DNA from: Candidatus Microgenomates bacterium | GTDB taxonomy: Bacteria > Patescibacteriota > JACPGU01 | Length of the DNA stretch: 32,110 bases | NCBI GenBank assembly: GCA_016188915.1 | Contig: JACPGU010000001.1 | Coordinates: forward strand, 1 to 32,110 | Direction of reading: 5' to 3' | Part shown: positions 8,058 to 15,585 of the stretch, in pieces | How positions within the stretch are numbered: position 1 is the stretch's first letter | Layout: the number at the start of each line of letters is the position of its first letter | Position numbers and translations under genes: made by a program | The notes under the pieces: generated by a model | The model's input: the letters and a program-made list of their open reading frames with translations, nothing else | Database searches by the model: none | What the model was told of the DNA's origin: nothing

Positions 8058-8224
8058 ATCGCAAATTGCAGATTTCAGATTGAAAAATTATAAATCTACA
8101 AGCATAAATATATAATGAAGCTGATCGTTGGCCTCGGCAATCCGGGCAAAGAATATGAAAAAACCCGCCATAATGCGGGATTTATTGCAATTGCAGATTT
8201 CAGATCGCAGATCGCAGATTGCGA
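8058..8224 (+). repeat. Heptamer tandem repeats (ATTGCAG/ATTTCAG/ATCGCAG) upstream of and inside pth
   Basis: Four units at 8058-8085 and five units at 8190-8224 (encoding IADFRSQIADC). Confidence 0.75.
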
Positions 8225-8639
8225 GGAGTTTTCTTTTGAAGGTAAATTTAACGCAGAGATAGCGCAGGGGATCTTTGATGGCGAAAAAATCATATTGGCA
8301 AAACCCATGACTTTTATGAATAATTCCGGCGAGGCGGTGAAAAAAATTGCTGATTTTTATAAGATTGCGCCGGAGGATATCACCGTTATCCATGATGATT
8401 TGGACATTCCTTTTGGCGAAGTAAGGGTGAAAAATGATGGCTCTTCCGCTGGGCACAATGGCGTGCAGTCTATTATTGACAATTTGGGCACAGAGGTCTT
8501 CCGGCGCGTCAGAATAGGCATAGGAAGGCCAATGGGAGACATTCCTGCCGATAAATATGTCTTGCAATCCTTCAGTGAGGAAGAACAGGCCAAACTGCCG
8601 GAGATATTAGAAAAAATTGGGAAGATAATCAGTAATTAG
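8115..8639 (+). CDS. pth: Peptidyl-tRNA hydrolase
   Basis: LIVGLGNPG, TRHNAGF, KPMTFMNNSG, HDDLD and GHNG motifs. Confidence 0.97.
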   Translation: MKLIVGLGNPGKEYEKTRHNAGFIAIADFRSQIADCEEFSFEGKFNAEIAQGIFDGEKIILAKPMTFMNNSGEAVKKIADFYKIAPEDITVIHDDLDIPFGEVRVKNDGSSAGHNGVQSIIDNLGTEVFRRVRIGIGRPMGDIPADKYVLQSFSEEEQAKLPEILEKIGKIISN

Positions 8640-8756
8640 CATTACGAATATCATATTTTCGTAAAAAGGAATAGCCGCACAAAGATGATGTGCGGTAAAA
8701 GCAGTGCCAATCCCAAATCTATTCATAATAATTAGCTCAAATTGGATTAATTCGCG

Positions 8757-8799
8757 ACAAACAAAAAGCCCTCTGGCTGATAAGATCTGCCAAAGGGCT
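8757..8799 (-). terminator. Intrinsic terminator ending the minus-strand ncRNA
   Basis: Minus strand AGCCCTTTGGC-loop-GCCAGAGGGCT-TTTTGTTTGT; the stem wobble is G-U on the minus strand. Confidence 0.75.
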
Positions 8800-9198
8800 A
8801 GGGGACAGGAGGGTGATGAACCACCGACCTGTATGGATGATCTGGCCGGATCCTCTGGGTGAAGAGCTTTCATCTGTATCTCTTAATTAACCTTGCGGTT
8901 AAAAAACAGGCAGGGAGATAAAAGCTTTTCATCCAGACGATCTGGCCAAAAGTCTCCTCGCTAGACTGCTCCCAAGATCTGTCTAGGCGACATTTATCCC
9001 TGTCTCAAAAAATAGAATTTTAGGCAGGTTTTGTGGGTGCCTAACGAAGAGGGTACTACCTGCGAGTGAAACCTTAAAGGAGGGCTAAAAGGTTGTCGCA
9101 TTACCGATTGCTCGGCAATGTCGCAAGTAGTACTATCTTCATTAGGCAAATCTTGGAGAAGAAGCGATGAAAAAACTAAATTTTTAATGTTTGTTTAT
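8760..9198 (-). ncRNA. Unassigned ~440-nt structured non-coding RNA
   Basis: Lies between a near-consensus promoter (9205-9233) and a terminator (8757-8799). Two 28-bp stems (9038-9065/9121-9148 and 8843-8870/8921-8948), two GCAA tetraloops on the minus strand, further hairpins, and no credible ORF. Confidence 0.7.
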
Positions 9199-9204
9199 GA
9201 TTAG

Positions 9205-9233
9205 AATATAGCACAATAGGGCAGGCTTGTCAA
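9205..9233 (-). promoter_or_regulatory. sigma70 promoter of the orphan ncRNA
   Basis: Minus strand TTGACA-17 bp-TATATT with extended TGn. Confidence 0.8.
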
Positions 9234-9369: not shown

Positions 9370-12300
9370 ATGCATAGACAGAATATATTTTTAGATAGTG
9401 TCCATTCTAGTATTTTTTCTTCCGAAGAATTTGTCCAGGCAAAAAATAAATTAACTTTGTCTGGCGAAGTCTCTTGCGGAGAATTAGGGTATTTAGCCAA
9501 AGCACTTTTACTTTCTGCCATAATATCCACCGATTGGCAATCTGCCGCAATGTTGGTGGCCGATAGAAAAAAAATTGATTTTTACGAAAATATTTTTCAA
9601 AGTATTGGCTTTGATGACCATTTGATTTTTACGGAAGAAAACAAACCGAAAATATTGTCTCTTGAGGCAAAACCAAGATTTGTCATTCTATCTGCTGAAG
9701 ATATATTGTCTTCTGCTCTCACTCCTGACGAATATTTGGCCAAAATCATTACTCTGACAGCAGGGAAGAAACTGCCAAATGATTTCAGTAAAAAATTAAT
9801 CAATCTAGGCTACGAAAAAGTAAAAAAAGTGAACAGAGCAGGAGAATTTTCTTTTTCAGGAGATATTTGGGAAATAGGCACTTTCTCTGGTGTCTTTCGA
9901 CTGGAATTGTTCGGCTTTAATCTGGAAAAGATATTTTTTTATGCTTTTTTATCTGGTCAAAATAATGATTTATTACGAATAGATACCAAGGAACAGAAGA
10001 AAAAAATCACTATCGCGCCTCTTGCTGTTGGTGATGGAAATGGTTTGGTTTGGGATTTTTTGGCCGATCATTTACTTTTTATTGACGGCCGAGAAAATAT
10101 TAATATGGCTCTAACGAATTGGCTTGATTTGGCCACTAATAAAAAGCTGGCAATTTCTGCCAGCAAATTTTTTTCTAATCAAAAGAAGGTATTTTTAGAA
10201 ACTTTTTTAGTATCAGAGAAAGAGGGAATTAATTTTTCTTGGTTTGCTCCTCAAAAATATAATCGTGCTTTGGCCTCTTTTTTTACTGAAGTAAAAAATG
10301 ACATCAAAAGCAAAAAAGTTTTCATTTTGTCTTCTGAAAAAGAAAAAATAGAAAAGCTATTAACCCATCATAATGTTCCTTTTGTTTCTTGCAACGAAAC
10401 AGGAATGGGAGTAAGGGTTTTTGAAGGCAGCGCCGTGGAAGGGGTAGATGCCAAAAGCGCTTCGCTCAAAATTTTTACCGATGAAGAACTCTTCGGCTTA
10501 AAGAAGAAAAAGAAAAAGGTAAAATTTTCCGCTCTGACCAATTTGAAAATAGGGGAGCATATAGTACACGTTGATCATGGCATTGGCAAATTTACCGGCT
10601 TTGGCACTATTACGGTGGACAATATTTCCAGAGAATATATTTTTATAGAATACAATAAAGGAGATAAAATATATGTTCCATTGGATCAGGCAGATAAAAT
10701 AACAAAATATATTACTGTCGGTAATCAACCGCCAAATCTATCTAGTCTTTCTAGTGGTCAATGGCTAAAAATAAGGAGTAAGGTAGAAAAAAATGTAGAA
10801 CAAATAGCCAAAAATTTGCTAGAAACACAAGCGATGAGAGAAGACGGTAAAGACTTTTCTTATATTGATGACGCGTCTTACCAAAAAAAAATAGCCAATA
10901 CTTTCCATTACAAAGTCACGCCAGATCAAGAAAAAGCGATAGAAGATATTCTGGAGAATATGAAAGAAAAAAAACCGATGGACAGAATACTGGTTGGCGA
11001 TGTTGGCTATGGCAAAACAGAGGTAGCCGTGCGAGCCGCTTTAAGGGCAGTAGTGTCCGGGGGGCAAGTGGCTATTTTGGTGCCAACAACTATTTTGGCC
11101 GAACAGCACGCTCAAACTTTCATTGAAAGATTAAGTGATTTTGGTATAAAGATTGAATCTTTGTCTCGCTTTACTGATAGGGCGAGACAAAAAAAGATAT
11201 TGGACAGATTAAAAATGGGCGGAGTAGATATTGTTATCGGCACCCATAGGCTCCTGTCTCCTGACGTAAAATTCAAAAAATTAATGTTAGTAGTGATCGA
11301 TGAAGAGCAAAAATTTGGGGTAAAAGACAAAGAAAAATTAAAAGCTTTGCGTCGTGGAGTAGATATTTTGACAATGACAGCCACACCTATCCCTCGCACT
11401 CTTTATTTTGGTCTAAGCTCACTGAAAGACATCAGCCTAATCGCTACTCCGCCAGAAGGGAGAAAACCTATCAAAACAATGGTGGCGCGCTATGATGATG
11501 AGATTATTAAAGAGGTTGTCAACAAAGAAATAGCGCGCGGTGGACAAATTTATTTTGTCCATAATAGGGTAGAGACTATAATAGCCTACAAAAATTATCT
11601 TCAGAGGCTTTTGCCAAAGGTAAAAATAGCTATCGGTCATGGCCAGATGTCAGAAAAAGATTTGGCTAGAGCCATTAACGATTTTGCAGCCGGCAAATAT
11701 GATATGTTGCTTTGTAGCACTATTATAGAGTCTGGGCTGGACATTTCTTCGGTTAATACTTTGATTATTGATCGTTCTACTCATTTGGGCTTGGCGCAGC
11801 TTCACCAATTACGCGGGCGTATTGGTAGAGGAGCTGTTCAGGCTTTTGCTTATTTTCTTTATAAAGAAGAAGATTTGCGAGGTAACGCGGAAAAAAGATT
11901 GAAAAGTATTGTGGAGAAAGGAGAATTGGGCTCTGGCTATGAATTATCGCTGGAGGATTTGGATATCAGGGGGTCCGGTAATATTTTAGGGCAAGAACAG
12001 CATGGCAGTATGCAGATGGTGGGAGTGGGCTATTATATGCGTCTCCTGGAAGAAGCCGTAGAAAGAATACGAGACAATAAATCAAAAAATATCAGTCATG
12101 ATTTTGATATAAAGATAGATTTACCGCTATCTGCCTTTATCCCCGATGATTTTTACAAGGGAAGCAATGAAGGCGAGAGTGAAAAAATCCGTGCCTATCA
12201 AAATATTGCTGATGCCGAAGACGAAGATGATTTGGCAGAATGCCTAGACAAATTCAAAAAAAACAAAGCAGAAATCCCGGCAGAGATATATCATTTGCTG

Positions 12301-12582
12301 GATGTGGCAAAAATAAAAATACGCGCTCGCGCCATTGGGCTCAAATCTGTTATTACTAAAGATTTAGAAAATATCTCCGGAAGAAAAAATAAAAAGCTCT
12401 ATCTGGACTTTGATCACATTTTGTCTCGCGATGAGATTCATGTCCTTTTTCTAGTAAGCGCCGATTGGCATTTTGGTAATACTCAAGCTAAAATAGATCT
12501 GGAAAGACTTGGCAGGAATAATGACTGGCTTCCCAGATTTTTAACAATTCTGGACAGATTAAAAGATTTGGCAAAAAAATAG
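9370..12582 (+). CDS. mfd: Transcription-repair coupling factor (divergent N-terminus)
   Basis: CarD-like VHVDHGIG, helicase motifs GDVGYGKT, DEEQKFG, TATPIPRT and QLRGRIGRG, TRG motif, TRCF C-terminus. Confidence 0.95.
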   Translation: MHRQNIFLDSVHSSIFSSEEFVQAKNKLTLSGEVSCGELGYLAKALLLSAIISTDWQSAAMLVADRKKIDFYENIFQSIGFDDHLIFTEENKPKILSLEAKPRFVILSAEDILSSALTPDEYLAKIITLTAGKKLPNDFSKKLINLGYEKVKKVNRAGEFSFSGDIWEIGTFSGVFRLELFGFNLEKIFFYAFLSGQNNDLLRIDTKEQKKKITIAPLAVGDGNGLVWDFLADHLLFIDGRENINMALTNWLDLATNKKLAISASKFFSNQKKVFLETFLVSEKEGINFSWFAPQKYNRALASFFTEVKNDIKSKKVFILSSEKEKIEKLLTHHNVPFVSCNETGMGVRVFEGSAVEGVDAKSASLKIFTDEELFGLKKKKKKVKFSALTNLKIGEHIVHVDHGIGKFTGFGTITVDNISREYIFIEYNKGDKIYVPLDQADKITKYITVGNQPPNLSSLSSGQWLKIRSKVEKNVEQIAKNLLETQAMREDGKDFSYIDDASYQKKIANTFHYKVTPDQEKAIEDILENMKEKKPMDRILVGDVGYGKTEVAVRAALRAVVSGGQVAILVPTTILAEQHAQTFIERLSDFGIKIESLSRFTDRARQKKILDRLKMGGVDIVIGTHRLLSPDVKFKKLMLVVIDEEQKFGVKDKEKLKALRRGVDILTMTATPIPRTLYFGLSSLKDISLIATPPEGRKPIKTMVARYDDEIIKEVVNKEIARGGQIYFVHNRVETIIAYKNYLQRLLPKVKIAIGHGQMSEKDLARAINDFAAGKYDMLLCSTIIESGLDISSVNTLIIDRSTHLGLAQLHQLRGRIGRGAVQAFAYFLYKEEDLRGNAEKRLKSIVEKGELGSGYELSLEDLDIRGSGNILGQEQHGSMQMVGVGYYMRLLEEAVERIRDNKSKNISHDFDIKIDLPLSAFIPDDFYKGSNEGESEKIRAYQNIADAEDEDDLAECLDKFKKNKAEIPAEIYHLLDVAKIKIRARAIGLKSVITKDLENISGRKNKKLYLDFDHILSRDEIHVLFLVSADWHFGNTQAKIDLERLGRNNDWLPRFLTILDRLKDLAKK

Positions 12583-13810: not shown

Positions 13811-15046
13811 TCACTGGGGTTTTGTATCGGAAAGGGGGATGGCCTTCAAATAATAAGGCTTAGCGCCAGTCATTTTCAGGAAATTAGCCATTGGTCGGCG
13901 CAATCTAGACGGCAAAAGTTTTGGCGGGAAAATACGACAGATGTGCGCCGTAATTCCCATGGCCGAACGAGACAGCTTTTCGTCGCCGGGATTCTGATAA
14001 GCGCTATGCAAAATCGCCCGAAAACGATCCTGATCCTTTCTTCGTAGGGTAATCTGTCGCCCTTCCAGCATCCTGACCGTTTGTATTGGCGGCCAATCAA
14101 TTTTCACGCGAAGACTCAAGCCCAACATTCTCGGCGAGCATTTATTTAAACGATAGTAGTGGATCTTTCCTCTGTTCACCGAGAAGGTATTGGGTTTTGC
14201 CTCTATCGCCGTCACAACTTTCTCTCGCACTTTTTTCGGGATAGGCTGATTGGACGAGATAATAATGTCGTCAGCGTAGATAGTGATAATCGGATGCTTG
14301 ATGCCATTATTTTCAAGAGCGAGATGGATTTTTTTGATTAGTCCGTCAGCATAGGTGGCGTAGACAAAAAAATCCGGAGAAGTAGGGGCGCCCTTGGGAA
14401 GAGAGTCTTTGTCGGTAATCAAGTCCACTACGGCAACAGTAAATTCATAGAGCAAATAAGTCAGATGACGATTGAGCTTGTACTGGAGAAAGTATCGGTG
14501 AAATCGACCACGAAGAAATTCTGCTTCGACATCTACGATAGATTGTCGATGCAAGAAGTGATTGCTGATGCTGGCATTAAATCGACCGCAGAGACTTTTG
14601 GAAAAAAGCTTACTTTTCTGAAACATGCTCTCCCGCCAAAGAATGCGCATCAAGGCAGGGAAGCATATTGTTATCAGAAAGTTTCTTTTTGTTGATCCGA
14701 AAGCGTTTTTCAGGTCTAGCTTGAAAAAGTATTCAGAGTCAGCGTGCGGATGGACTGCAGTCAAGATTGATTTGTTTCGCAAAAATCCATGAAAGCGATA
14801 GTAATGGTGGGTATTTGGATCAAATTTCTGAAAGACAAAATTGTCCATAAGTCTCAAGCCTATTATCCTGTGAAGCCGTTCCTGCACTACTTTCAGAATG
14901 GGAGTGGGTACCGAAATAGTATGCTTGCCCAATTTGTGGCTTCGGTAACGATCTTCGAGCAAAAGGATCTCAATGTATTCTTCTGGCGTAATATCCAGGA
15001 CTCGGCAAAGTAGTCGTTCTCCTTCAAGCAAACCTCTCTGGTCCAT
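13811..15046 (-). CDS. Reverse transcriptase, retron-like but divergent
   Basis: ISVPTPILKVVQERL, HGFLRNKSILTAVHPH (region X-like), LDLKNAFGS (first catalytic Asp and steric-gate F), LPKGAPTSP, YADD, VNRGK and MLGL (region Y-like); SD AAGGTGG upstream. No fused maturase, Cas1 or nuclease domain is visible. Confidence 0.9.
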   Translation of the reverse strand: MDQRGLLEGERLLCRVLDITPEEYIEILLLEDRYRSHKLGKHTISVPTPILKVVQERLHRIIGLRLMDNFVFQKFDPNTHHYYRFHGFLRNKSILTAVHPHADSEYFFKLDLKNAFGSTKRNFLITICFPALMRILWRESMFQKSKLFSKSLCGRFNASISNHFLHRQSIVDVEAEFLRGRFHRYFLQYKLNRHLTYLLYEFTVAVVDLITDKDSLPKGAPTSPDFFVYATYADGLIKKIHLALENNGIKHPIITIYADDIIISSNQPIPKKVREKVVTAIEAKPNTFSVNRGKIHYYRLNKCSPRMLGLSLRVKIDWPPIQTVRMLEGRQITLRRKDQDRFRAILHSAYQNPGDEKLSRSAMGITAHICRIFPPKLLPSRLRRPMANFLKMTGAKPYYLKAIPLSDTKPQ

Positions 15047-15104: not shown

Positions 15105-15291
15105 GAAAAAAAAGGAGGGGGCAAGCAAACGCACCTTTTTTGAAACCACCCGCTACCCGCGCGAGCGGAAAGTTCCGGGGGAAATGCCGGTCCTTATAAA
15201 ATCCGTCGCAGGAAGCCCGCGACGACCCCTTTGGGGCTGGGGAGACAAATAGCACTCATCCCTTTTTCTGAGTTCTTGTCGCCCCCTCCAT
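15105..15291 (-). ncRNA. RT-associated structured ncRNA (msr/msd-like)
   Basis: Terminal inverted repeat GGAGGGGGC/GCCCCCUCC (15281-15289 / 15114-15122) encloses four stem-loops with minus-strand G-U pairs. It starts ~7 nt after a -10 box, ends in a U tract, and lies directly upstream of the RT gene. Confidence 0.75.
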
Positions 15292-15296
15292 AGAGT

Positions 15297-15325
15297 ATTT
15301 TACAAAAAAGACGATAAAATAGCAA
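15297..15325 (-). promoter_or_regulatory. sigma70 promoter of the RT-associated ncRNA
   Basis: Minus strand TTGCTA-17 bp-TAAAAT; +1 would fall at the 5' arm of the closing stem. Confidence 0.7.
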
Positions 15326-15330
15326 CTTCA

Positions 15331-15366
15331 GACAGCAAAAAGCCCCCGAGGAGGGGACTTTCTTGT
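15331..15366 (-). terminator. Terminator after the small ORFs; direct-repeat copy 2
   Basis: Minus strand AAGTCCCCT-CCTC-GGGGGCTT-TTTG; 35/36 identical to 13728-13763. Confidence 0.75.
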
Positions 15367-15381
15367 CAGGGGGGGTCGGTT

Positions 15382-15585
15382 TTACCGCTTGATTCTTTTG
15401 ATTATTGGAGAGCCAACGTGGGCCATTCTCCTGCTGTTGCATTTGGGGCAAGGGGCCTTGGTAAAAGGGATATTGAAGCCGAGGAACCGTCTTAAGACAA
15501 AATAGGTACCTTGGCAGGCGGTACATTTCGTCTGTTGCCGAGTAAGTGGCGGAGTGAATTGTACCAGGGGATTTTTTGGTATCAT
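15382..15585 (-). CDS. Small basic zinc-ribbon protein (hypothetical)
   Basis: CTAC...CPKC (two CxxC), SD GAGGTG upstream, followed by a terminator. Confidence 0.65.
   Translation of the reverse strand: MIPKNPLVQFTPPLTRQQTKCTACQGTYFVLRRFLGFNIPFTKAPCPKCNSRRMAHVGSPIIKRIKR

What the first reader, a model, noticed from the sequence alone, without database searches (positions are those of the whole stretch)
8760..9233. Orphan ~440-nt highly structured ncRNA with a strong promoter and terminator
Seen: TTGACA-17-TATATT promoter, boxA-like leader and terminator. Domain A is a 28-bp stem (9038-9065/9121-9148) capped by a three-way junction with a GCAA-loop hairpin (9099-9120). Domain B is a multibranch with a second 28-bp stem, another GCAA hairpin (8887-8902), and a hairpin at ~8958-8990. 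The loop of that hairpin (AGAUCUUGGG) can pair with UCCAAGAUUU near the 5' end, a candidate pseudoknot. I cannot find the signature motifs of RNase P RNA, tmRNA, SRP RNA or self-splicing introns. Inference: a possibly new large ncRNA class.
Basis: partly seen in the sequence, partly recalled or inferred. Interest (0 to 1): 0.76.

Follow-up and report, generated by a model that had tools for sequence, protein, structure and literature searches.

The report
New anti-Shine-Dalgarno RNA of CPR bacteria
This is a real, strongly promoted gene for a roughly 440-base folded non-coding RNA that matches no catalogued RNA family, belongs to a family kept next to the pth gene in many ultra-small (CPR) bacteria, and displays a copy of the ribosome's mRNA-docking sequence, so it probably acts on translation.

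Summary
The gene is real. On the minus strand a near-consensus promoter (9233-9205) and a hairpin/U-tract terminator (8799-8758) bracket about 441 nt that fold far better than shuffles (z -13.6). It matches no Rfam 15 family. It is not RNase P RNA, tmRNA, SRP RNA or 6S RNA, and the 88-aa ORF is not conserved.

It is not an orphan. Full-length homologues occur in 6 of 6 genomes of the order, and six more came from metagenomes. Across these 12 sequences 94% of cells pair, against 37-45% with slid partners, and 31 pairs change on both sides.

The core is a long hairpin whose invariant loop UUAGCCCUCCUUU resembles the organism's own 16S 3' tail. It recurs in 25 true matches among 151 genomes of the phylum. 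It always lies antisense to and downstream of pth, beside mfd or dprA.

New here is a pair of mutually exclusive helices, both covarying.

Best reading (about 0.45): a trans-acting RNA that pairs with ribosome-binding sites. No RNA-seq run was available, so expression, targets and partners are untested.

The parts
9205..9233 (-). Promoter: TTGACA, 17 nt, TATATT, with TGTGC before the -10 (extended -10).
   Evidence: 11 of 12 matches. The same promoter stands in 7 of 7 loci and in 7 of 9 metagenome loci. This exact pattern occurs once in the 769-kb genome.
9148..9198 (-). 5' leader, A/U-rich and variable. The start near 9198 is inferred from the -10 box, not mapped.
Evidence: It aligns poorly among homologues.
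9039..9147 (-). Domain A. Long helix P1 (9147-9121 with 9065-9039, one 2-nt internal loop) is capped by a three-way junction.
   Evidence: In one search the upper P1 has 96% of cells paired. In one search the lower P1 has 4 pairs with changes on both sides.
9101..9118 (-). P1a, a variable hairpin with a GCAA loop. It is absent in G003 and differs in sequence in the others.
9071..9093 (-). P1b hairpin with the invariant 13-nt loop UUAGCCCUCCUUU (9088-9076), which is anti-Shine-Dalgarno-like.
   Evidence: The loop is invariant in 12 of 12 full-length homologues. A CC(C)UCC core is present in 18 of 20 distant loci. It resembles the 16S 3' tail read.
8999..9028 (-). P2 hairpin: the sequence varies and the pairing is kept.
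   Evidence: helix 5: 7 pairs, 6 with changes on both sides, 94% of cells paired.
8980..8994 (-). Invariant 15-mer AAUGUCGCCUAGACA. It holds a small GUC...GAC hairpin that also occurs in distant family members.
   Evidence: Invariant in 12 of 12. An AAGUC-loop-GAC motif is seen in 6 of 6 f11-type RNAs.
9041..9051 (-). CU-rich 3' strand of the lower P1. It is shared by two mutually exclusive helices (P1-lower and ALT).
8954..8964 (-). Purine-rich strand CUAGCGAGGAG, the partner of 9051-9041 in the alternative helix ALT.
   Evidence: helix 3: 95.9% of cells paired and 4 covarying pairs (for example CG in 7 and UA in 5 sequences). The counterpart GGGAG strand in f11-type RNAs appears.
8841..8950 (-). 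P4, the second long helix (8950-8917 with 8874-8841). Its apical part is variable and includes the GCAA hairpin at 8900-8889.
   Evidence: helices 7 and 8: 29 pairs, 16 with changes on both sides, 92-93% of cells paired.
8806..8831 (-). 3' hairpin. It was not part of the consensus fold and lies in the poorly aligned 3' part.
8758..8799 (-). Intrinsic terminator: an 11-bp stem followed by UUUUUGUUUG.
   Evidence: A hairpin plus U-tract ends each homologue sequence taken.
8607..8873 (-). 88-aa ORF overlapping the RNA 3' part and the pth 3' end. It is judged spurious.
   Evidence: No Pfam family. No tblastn hit below E 0.1 in 11 homologue loci. The longest ORFs differ in place and frame among the homologues.

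Best explanation
Window 9198-8758 (minus strand) is an independent gene for a roughly 441-nt structured non-coding RNA. It belongs to an uncatalogued family of CPR (Patescibacteria) bacteria.

Shown:
- It has its own near-consensus promoter and terminator.
- A covarying fold is kept across the homologues.
- A long hairpin carries an apical 13-nt loop, UUAGCCCUCCUUU, that never varies in the order. Its CC(C)UCC core is kept across distant families.
- The gene has a fixed place, antisense to and downstream of pth.
- The loop is the complement of the AAAGGAGGG-type ribosome-binding sites seen in this genome, and it resembles the genome's own 16S 3' tail.

Inferred: the RNA is abundant. It acts in trans by pairing its exposed loop with Shine-Dalgarno regions of mRNAs, in competition with the 30S subunit, and so lowers translation initiation.

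The CU-rich 3' strand of the main helix can pair with either of two purine-rich strands: the 5' strand of the helix, or a strand in the 3' domain. Both pairings covary. I read this as a conformational switch that changes which Shine-Dalgarno-like and anti-Shine-Dalgarno-like segments are exposed. What trips the switch is unknown.
For: The gene is real.
- Promoter and fold.
- The same promoter stands in 7 of 7 loci.
- On the structure there are 69 G-U cells on this strand against 24 that would form on the other strand. That gives 94.1% against 88.2% of 762 cells paired.

The fold is conserved.
- In 12 sequences, 65 pairs, 94.1% of cells pair, against 37-45% with slid partners.
- 31 pairs change on both sides, and 0 of 500 shuffles reach the covariation score.

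The family is wide.
- 6 of 6 genomes of the order and 7 of 7 of the class.
- Model R2 matches 27 of 151 genomes of the phylum.
- Of 20 loci outside the order, 18 carry CC(C)UCC in the hairpin and lie next to pth, mfd or dprA. The RNA is on the strand opposite pth in 16 of the 16 where pth is held.

Loop and target.
- This genome's 16S 3' end reads GGAUCACCUCCUUUCUAAGG.
- A scan for AAAGGAGGGC with at most 1 mismatch gave 64 sites, some of them just upstream of ATG or GTG start codons.

The switch.
- ALT helix: 95.9% of cells paired, 4 covarying pairs.
- P1-lower: 4 covarying pairs.
- In f11-type relatives the same contact is kept, with UCUCCC:GGGAG changing to CUCCAG:CUGGAG in 2 of 6.
Against: - There is no expression data at all (one search listed no RNA holder).
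- No specific target emerged. The loop's complement is simply the general ribosome-binding-site consensus, and one RNA species would have to be very abundant to affect many mRNAs.
- A 13-nt loop that never varies is more than base pairing with a 5-6-nt Shine-Dalgarno core requires. That fits recognition by a protein or a specific RNA at least as well.
- The strict synteny with pth is not explained by a global trans-acting role.
- The ALT conformer is less stable than the full P1 by 3 to 14 kcal/mol in 10 of 11 sequences. Its covariation may rest on few independent events, because the sequences are related.
Confidence: 0.45

Rival explanations
1. Decoy of the 16S rRNA 3' end. The apical hairpin mimics the 16S tail and titrates a protein that normally recognises it, such as a maturation or decay RNase, an assembly GTPase, a small-subunit protein, or a nuclease toxin aimed at the tail.
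For: The loop and its 3' flank (CCCUCCUUUAAGG) resemble the 16S 3' end plus trailer read (CACCUCCUUUCUAAGG). The f11-type loops read CACCCUCCUUUAAG. The invariance of all 13 loop bases in 12 of 12 sequences suits recognition by a protein.
Against: No candidate partner gene is linked to the locus. The neighbours are pth, mfd or dprA. No binding test was possible.
Confidence: 0.2
2. Ribosome-binding RNA. The purine-rich, Shine-Dalgarno-like strands (GAGGAG or GGGAG, and the 5' strand of P1) dock on the 30S anti-Shine-Dalgarno tail. The RNA would then occupy or park small subunits, in the manner of an mRNA mimic or a hibernation-type factor.
For: A conserved GGGAG/GAGGAG strand is seen in 12 of 12 order-level RNAs. 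In the f11-type RNAs it reads GGGAG in 4 of 6 and CUGGAG in 2 of 6. One of the two purine strands must be unpaired in either conformer.
Against: The most conserved element is the anti-Shine-Dalgarno loop, not the purine strands. The shortest family members (G006, about 166 nt, and the f21-type, about 105 nt) lack the 3' domain.
Confidence: 0.1
3. Local, cis-acting role at the pth-mfd junction. Convergent transcription into pth, a shared two-way terminator or promoter interference with mfd/dprA would be the function, with the RNA itself secondary.
For: The position is strictly kept. The RNA lies antisense to and downstream of pth in 16 of 16 distant loci that hold pth, and divergent from mfd or dprA. 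In G006 the terminator abuts the pth 3' end.
Against: An invariant loop, helices that covary and a 3' domain would not be maintained for transcriptional interference alone. In the window the terminator (8799-8758) ends 119 nt before the pth stop at 8639.
Confidence: 0.1
4. A very divergent copy of a known housekeeping RNA (RNase P RNA, 6S, SRP RNA or tmRNA).
For: No RNase P RNA was detected in G000 or G001 although rnpA is present in G000. No SRP RNA was detected either.
Against: - RNase P RNA: four relatives (G002-G005) carry both this RNA and a bona fide RNase P RNA at another locus.
- tmRNA: it lies elsewhere in the genome at 136.9 bits.
- 6S: a 6S-like match lies elsewhere.
- SRP: Ffh and FtsY are missing, a published CPR trait (PMC4508563).
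- Rfam: no match of the region to any of these models at E up to 10.
Confidence: 0.04
5. It encodes a protein: the 88-aa ORF, the 51-aa ORF or a mini-ORF behind the GGGAG strand.
For: ORFs of 88 and 51 aa exist. In three of the six f11-type sequences printed I read, by eye, a 3-4-codon frame starting at UUG after the GGGAG strand.
Against: - The 88-aa ORF has no conserved counterpart.
- The tblastn matches of the 51-aa ORF fall on both strands and in varying frames over the conserved hairpin.
- The longest ORFs differ in place and length (24-69 aa) among the homologues.
- The changes seen are compensatory in helices, not synonymous.
- In the order-level RNAs no start codon is kept after the purine strand (alignment, read by eye).
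Confidence: 0.02

Closest known systems
Cuckoo / CcsR (alpha-r14) small RNAs of Alphaproteobacteria, and similar sRNAs with C- or CU-rich loops (RsaE/RoxS of Firmicutes, 6C RNA of Actinobacteria). All named from my own knowledge.
   Same: Stable hairpins present an unpaired C/U-rich, anti-Shine-Dalgarno-like loop. The family is conserved over a wide taxon. The presumed mode of action is pairing with ribosome-binding regions.
   Different: - No sequence or structure match: no Rfam family was hit.
- It is much larger here (about 441 nt, against roughly 100-200 nt as I recall).
- It has one very long helix with a three-way junction, a 3' domain and two competing helices.
- It has a fixed genomic place next to pth.
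Staphylococcus aureus RNAIII (from my own knowledge).
   Same: A large multi-hairpin regulatory RNA of several hundred nt. Its C-rich loops pair with Shine-Dalgarno regions of several mRNAs.
   Different: RNAIII also encodes a peptide and belongs to a quorum-sensing locus. Here no ORF is conserved and there is one invariant loop rather than several. No homology was detected.
6S RNA (Rfam RF00013).
   Same: A strongly transcribed, largely double-stranded, rod-like RNA.
   Different: The region does not match RF00013 at E up to 10. A separate 6S-like match lies at C2:64625-64781 (36.7 bits). No large central bubble is seen in the consensus fold.
3' terminal region of 16S rRNA (anti-Shine-Dalgarno tail).
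   Same: The run CCUCCUUU is shared with this genome's own 16S 3' end, and an AAGG follows closely in both (one search compared).
   Different: It is not part of an rRNA operon. The sequence sits in a hairpin loop, not at a free 3' end. There is an extra C (CCCUCC against CACCUCC).

Membership tests
Bacterial RNase P RNA (RF00010 / RF00011) | Match to the covariance model, that is, the conserved P4 core and overall fold. | tested here: not met
   No match in G000. No match of the region at E up to 10.
Bacterial RNase P RNA (RF00010 / RF00011) | One essential copy per genome, so the candidate should be the only RNase P RNA in its relatives. | tested here: not met
   G002-G005 hold a strong RF00010 match (E 5e-36 to 6e-63) at loci other than the homologue of this RNA.
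tmRNA (RF00023) | A tRNA-like domain plus a tag reading frame; match to the model or to ARAGORN. | tested here: not met
   ARAGORN found 0 genes in the window. The genome's tmRNA is at C3:238549-238900 with 136.9 bits.
SRP RNA (RF00169 / RF01854) | Match to the model, and presence of the partner protein Ffh. | tested here: not met
   No match. No SRP54-type GTPase or M domain in G000, and 0 of 31 relatives over the Pfam cut-off. The lack of SRP in CPR is published (PMC4508563, abstract and one passage read; PMC8080830, one passage read).
6S RNA (RF00013) | Match to the model; a rod with a large central bubble. | tested here: not met
   No match of the region at E up to 10. A 6S-like match lies elsewhere. 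The consensus fold has no central bubble.
Any Rfam 15 family, including cuckoo/CcsR, 6C, RsaE, OLE, ROOL, GOLLD, HEARO and raiA (names recalled) | Score at or above the family's gathering cut-off. | tested here: not met
   0 matches in the window. The best sub-threshold match is 26.1 bits against a cut-off of 90. Six homologue loci gave the same picture.
Trans-acting anti-Shine-Dalgarno sRNA (a functional kind, not a homology family) | An unpaired C/U-rich segment complementary to the organism's ribosome-binding sites. | tested here: met
   The loop UUAGCCCUCCUUU is mostly unpaired in the consensus fold, apart from two invariant, untestable pairs (A-U and G-C) inside it. Its complement AAAGGAGGG-type sites occur upstream of start codons in G000.
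Trans-acting anti-Shine-Dalgarno sRNA (a functional kind, not a homology family) | The RNA is expressed as a discrete transcript and binds mRNA targets. | not testable with these tools
   No RNA run holds the stretch.
Protein-coding gene | A reading frame conserved among homologues. | tested here: not met
   the 88-aa ORF has no hit below E 0.1 in 11 loci, and the longest ORFs differ in frame and place.

The most novel reading that the evidence does not exclude
A lineage-wide, ribosome-directed RNA of CPR bacteria. It would be a switchable mimic of the 16S rRNA 3' tail, carrying both Shine-Dalgarno-like and anti-Shine-Dalgarno-like strands, and it would govern global translation initiation or small-subunit availability in these minimal cells. 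That would make it a new housekeeping-type RNA rather than an ordinary target-specific sRNA. In this order it has grown to about 440 nt by gaining a 3' domain.
Probability: 0.25. Interest if true: 0.85.

Novelty: new variant of a known kind. Interest (0 to 1): 0.74.

Why it matters
CPR (Patescibacteria) bacteria make up a large share of bacterial diversity, yet almost nothing is known of their regulatory RNAs. A 2022 preprint on the best-studied cultured member states that it has no validated small RNAs (10.1101/2022.03.25.485537, one passage read).

Here is a family with unusually clean signals:
- a consensus promoter;
- helices that covary;
- an invariant loop that copies the ribosome's mRNA-docking sequence;
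- a fixed place beside pth in distant families.

It gives a concrete, testable entry point into translation control in organisms with minimal genomes. Some carriers are labelled Candidatus Saccharibacteria by their submitters, a group with cultured members. The pair of competing, covarying helices also makes it a candidate natural RNA switch with no known trigger.

Tried and rejected
- **RNA-seq evidence.** The look-up of sequencing runs listed 3 DNA holders from one study and no RNA holder. Read laying was therefore not used. This says nothing about expression.
- **Earlier notes of this scan.** There was no look-alike by sequence and none for the words.
- **RNase P idea.** It was attractive because G000 and G001 give no RF00010/RF00011 match and G000 has rnpA. 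I dropped it because G002-G005 have both RNAs at separate loci.
- **SRP RNA idea.** Dropped because there is no Ffh or FtsY, which is a published CPR trait.
Not conserved.
- **boxA.** I could not verify it.
- **A specific target.** Scanning for the loop's complement gave 64 sites with at most 1 mismatch, and no single outstanding target. mfd here has no Shine-Dalgarno sequence (read).
- **Mini-ORF behind the GGGAG strand, with a link to pth through peptidyl-tRNA drop-off.** Tiny UUG frames appear in some f11-type RNAs, but none is kept in the order-level RNAs. Dropped.
- **Link to the reverse-transcriptase gene at 13811-15046.** None of the 18 true distant loci examined lay beside anything other than pth, mfd or dprA. 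I did not scan those loci for reverse transcriptases. Dropped as unsupported.
- **Alignments not used for models.** A4 mixed in reverse-strand matches. In A5 MAFFT misaligned the f21-type hairpins.
- **False positives.** Two R2 matches (G024/L052 and G051/L088) have neither the loop motif nor the neighbours.
- **Genome-collection scan.** One of its 10 hits (L122) is a chance match.
- **Literature.** Searches found no description of such an RNA. One search was too loosely set to be informative.
Full report
**What is in the window**

The finding lies in the 730-base spacer between pth (peptidyl-tRNA hydrolase, 8115-8639, +) and mfd (transcription-repair coupling factor, 9370-12582, +).

On the minus strand there is a TTGACA-17-TATATT promoter at 9233..9205, with 11 of 12 matches and TG before the -10. 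About 441 nt further on there is an 11-bp hairpin (8799-8789 with 8777-8767) followed by UUUUUGUUUG. The promoter scan as a whole found no more sites than chance (3 against 2.8). So neither signal is strong evidence alone.

The 456-nt stretch folds at -186.6 kcal/mol against -109.8 +/- 5.6 for dinucleotide shuffles. That is z -13.6, and 0 of 100 shuffles fold as well.

**It is not a catalogued RNA**

- cmscan of the whole window gave 0 matches at gathering score.
- In the region at E up to 10 there were 11 matches, all far below their cut-offs. The best was a plant or animal microRNA hairpin model at 26 bits against 90.
- Six homologue loci gave the same picture.
- ARAGORN found nothing in the window.

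In the genome (769 kb, 4 contigs, 94.7% complete) the other housekeeping RNAs stand as follows:

| RNA | Result |
|---|---|
| tmRNA | at C3:238549-238900, 136.9 bits |
| 6S-like | at C2:64625-64781, 36.7 bits, below the cut-off of 46.4 |
| RNase P RNA | no match |
| SRP RNA | no match |

The RNase P gap made me test that idea directly. RF00010 matches 38 of 41 relatives, including 4 of 5 genomes of the same family. In those four (G002-G005) the RNase P RNA lies at a different locus from the homologue of this RNA. So this is not RNase P RNA.

The SRP gap is explained differently. G000 has no Ffh M domain and no SRP54-type GTPase. My own scan of the six-frame translation found no SRP-type G3 motif in a plausible gene, and the 31 long frames with a P-loop include nothing that looks like Ffh or FtsY. 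Among relatives, 0 of 31 reach the Pfam cut-off and 0 of 40 match RF00169. Loss of SRP is already described for Parcubacteria (PMC4508563, abstract and one passage read) and for 'many other CPR bacteria' (PMC8080830, one passage read).

**It is not an orphan**

A DNA search found the central 110-240 nt in all 5 other genera of the family (E 1.8e-38 to 8.2e-13). The order as held has only these 6 genomes, and all 6 match.

A pattern made from two invariant motifs found 9 metagenome loci. Three duplicate G003, G004 and G005, and six are new. That gives 12 distinct sequences, one of them cut at its 5' end. The sequences taken from promoter to terminator run 387-512 nt. G004's full transcript is about 655 nt because it carries an extra upstream hairpin, and I aligned only its last 450 nt.

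All seven loci checked carry TTGACA-17-TATATT. Six have TGTGC before the -10, and G006 has ATGC.

**The fold**

On the 12-sequence alignment (A3) RNAalifold predicts 72 pairs, 30 of them with compensatory changes. I then counted two explicit structures.

| Measure | Structure | Structure |
|---|---|---|
| Pairs / cells | 65 / 762 | 80 / 912 |
| Cells paired | 94.1% | 86.7% |
| Cells paired with 3' partners slid 1-3 columns | 36.6-45.4% | 34.5-45.5% |
| Pairs changing on both sides | 31 | 35 |
| Shuffles reaching the covariation score | 0 of 500 | 0 of 500 |

Per helix:
- P2 has 6 of 7 pairs with changes on both sides.
- P4 has 16 of 29.
- The full P1, as counted, has 7 of 25.

These sequences are related, so the shuffle control overstates significance. 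The slid-partner control does not suffer from that.

G-U pairs fix the strand. There are 69 G-U cells on the minus strand, against 24 A-C cells that would become G-U on the plus strand.

- The hairpin at 8986-8961 pairs in 80.6% of cells, but none of its 6 pairs covaries. Its core is an invariant palindromic CUAG.
- The pseudoknot (9157-9150 with 8978-8971) is good in this genome (-13.7 kcal/mol, p 0.023 against shuffled loops). It beats shuffles at p below 0.05 in 1 of 11 homologues. In the alignment 42-50% of its cells pair, but the leader aligns poorly, so the alignment-free test is the fairer one.
- The 88-aa ORF (8607-8873) has no Pfam family and no tblastn hit below E 0.1 in 11 homologue loci. 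The longest ORFs of the homologues (24-69 aa) differ in place and frame.

**A new feature: two competing helices**

The CU-rich strand 9051-9041 (CUCUUCGUUAG) is the 3' strand of the lower part of P1. RNAalifold instead pairs it with the purine-rich strand 8964-8954 (CUAGCGAGGAG) of the 3' domain.

Both pairings are supported:
- The alternative helix (ALT) has 95.9% of cells paired and 4 covarying pairs, for example C-G in 7 and U-A in 5 sequences.
- The lower P1 also has 4 covarying pairs.

They cannot coexist. Forced folding shows the full P1 is the ground state in 10 of 11 sequences, by 3.3 to 14.3 kcal/mol. ALT wins only in G004, by 1.3.

The covarying changes may go back to few events. 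However, the same contact recurs in a distant branch (next section), which argues that it is selected.

**The wider family**

A covariance model of domain A (R1) matched all 7 genomes of the class. In G006 the RNA is only about 166 nt, that is, domain A plus a terminator. In a sample of the phylum R1 matched 16 of 151 genomes.

A second model built from 7 distant matches (R2) matched 27 of 151. These were concentrated in certain families (f1 5/5, f2 1/1, f11 4/5, f21 6/6) and absent from many others.

I examined 20 loci outside the order:
- 18 have CC(C)UCC in the hairpin and lie beside pth and/or mfd or dprA.
- The RNA is on the strand opposite pth in all 16 where pth is held.
- The other 2 (L052, L088) have neither feature and are false positives.

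Counting G025 as well (seen), true carriers number 25 of 151.

I also ran a check that does not depend on the models. In 28 pth loci I looked 800 nt downstream on the antisense strand. This recovered the 5 known carriers in that set and suggested more (G012, G028, G026, G014, G041, perhaps G021). These have a related long helix and a loop reading (A/C)(U/C)CCCUCCU. So the models undercount.

A scan of the species-genome collection found 10 loci, of which 9 are true members. Their record titles read 'Patescibacteria group bacterium' or 'uncultured Candidatus Saccharibacteria bacterium'. These are the submitters' labels, and I did not check them.

The f11-type RNAs (about 165-200 nt) also have a 3' domain. 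It holds a P2 hairpin, an AAGUC-loop-GAC hairpin like the one inside the invariant 15-mer here, and a GGGAG strand. That strand is complementary to the UCUCCC of the P1 3' strand, and the pair changes to CUCCAG:CUGGAG in 2 of 6. The duplex beats shuffles at p below 0.05 in 4 of 6.

**What the conserved loop is**

The 13-nt loop UUAGCCCUCCUUU (9088-9076) is identical in 12 of 12 full-length RNAs.

This genome's 16S rRNA ends GGAUCACCUCCUUUCUAAGG.... The loop and its closing stem read CCCUCCUUUAAGG, and the f11-type loops read CACCCUCCUUUAAG.

The complement, AAAGGAGGG, is what stands in front of a number of start codons in G000 among the 64 sites with at most 1 mismatch to AAAGGAGGGC. No single outstanding target appeared.

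**How it most likely works**

*Shown:*
- an independently promoted and terminated, structured, non-coding gene;
- an exposed, invariant anti-Shine-Dalgarno-like loop;
- a second CU-rich strand that can choose between two purine-rich partners;
- strict synteny with pth.

*Inferred:* the RNA pairs through its loop with ribosome-binding regions and competes with 30S subunits, and the helix exchange modulates what is exposed. I put this at about 0.45.

The main rival, at 0.2, is a decoy of the 16S tail for a protein. It explains the full invariance of the loop better but has no candidate partner. Lesser rivals are a 30S-binding mRNA mimic (0.1) and a local role at the pth-mfd junction (0.1). The latter is the only reading that explains the synteny directly.

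Nothing here shows expression. The one run search gave DNA holders only.

**Comparison with known systems and novelty**

By mode of action the nearest known things are, from my own knowledge:
- sRNAs with C/U-rich loops (cuckoo/CcsR, RsaE/RoxS, 6C);
- for size and multi-hairpin build, S. aureus RNAIII.

It is a member of none of them, because no Rfam model matches.

Literature searches found no description of such an RNA. These were, for which I saw listings and abstracts, plus passages of PMC5737381 and PMC8172020. A 2022 preprint states that the cultured CPR bacterium TM7x has no validated small RNAs (10.1101/2022.03.25.485537, one passage read). Supplementary files of these papers were not opened and could hold unlisted candidates.

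I therefore rate it a new RNA family of a known general kind. It has unusual traits: its size, the competing helices, the likeness to the rRNA tail and the fixed locus.

Noticed in passing
Whole genome G000; rnpA at C3:153667-153978: The RNase P protein gene is present, but no RNase P RNA is found. RF00010 and RF00011 give no match. nhmmer and blastn with the RNase P RNAs of relatives G004 and G002 also find nothing. G001 also has no match, while G002-G005 do. The gene may lie in an assembly gap or be very divergent, as reported for some CPR genomes (PMC8172020, passages read).
   Followed up: partly
Whole genome G000 and relatives: There is no Ffh, FtsY or SRP RNA in G000. Among relatives, 0 of 31 reach the Pfam cut-off for the SRP54 GTPase domain and 0 of 40 match RF00169. 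This agrees with the published loss of SRP in CPR (PMC4508563, PMC8080830).
   Followed up: yes
window 13811-15046 (-) and 15194-15526 (-): A 411-aa ORF has a weak reverse-transcriptase match (RVT_1, E 9e-8, only residues 213-298). Upstream on the same strand lies a 110-aa ORF with no family. The type (retron, DGR, group II or other) was not determined. I found no link to the RNA.
   Followed up: no
L014:1291-1409 (G004), upstream of its main copy; also G076, G099 and G139: G004 carries a second hairpin like domain A in tandem (R1 48 bits), with a different CU-rich loop. G076, G099 and G139 show two adjacent R2 matches. So the hairpin module can duplicate in tandem.
   Followed up: partly
G000 C3 about 7765 and 7910 (minus strand), 5' end of the 16S rRNA gene: The stretch that opens the 16S gene (ending ...AGAGTTTGATCTTGGCTC) occurs twice, about 145 nt apart, with a GC-rich hairpin-like insert between the copies. 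This may be a duplication or insertion at the 16S 5' end.
   Followed up: no
G000 C2:64625-64781 (-): A 6S-like match of 36.7 bits (E 2.2e-6) lies below the Rfam cut-off of 46.4. It is probably the genome's divergent 6S RNA.
   Followed up: no
window 8675-8695 (-): A second terminator-like hairpin on the minus strand lies between the RNA's terminator and the pth stop. It could back up termination of the RNA or belong to the pth 3' end.
   Followed up: no
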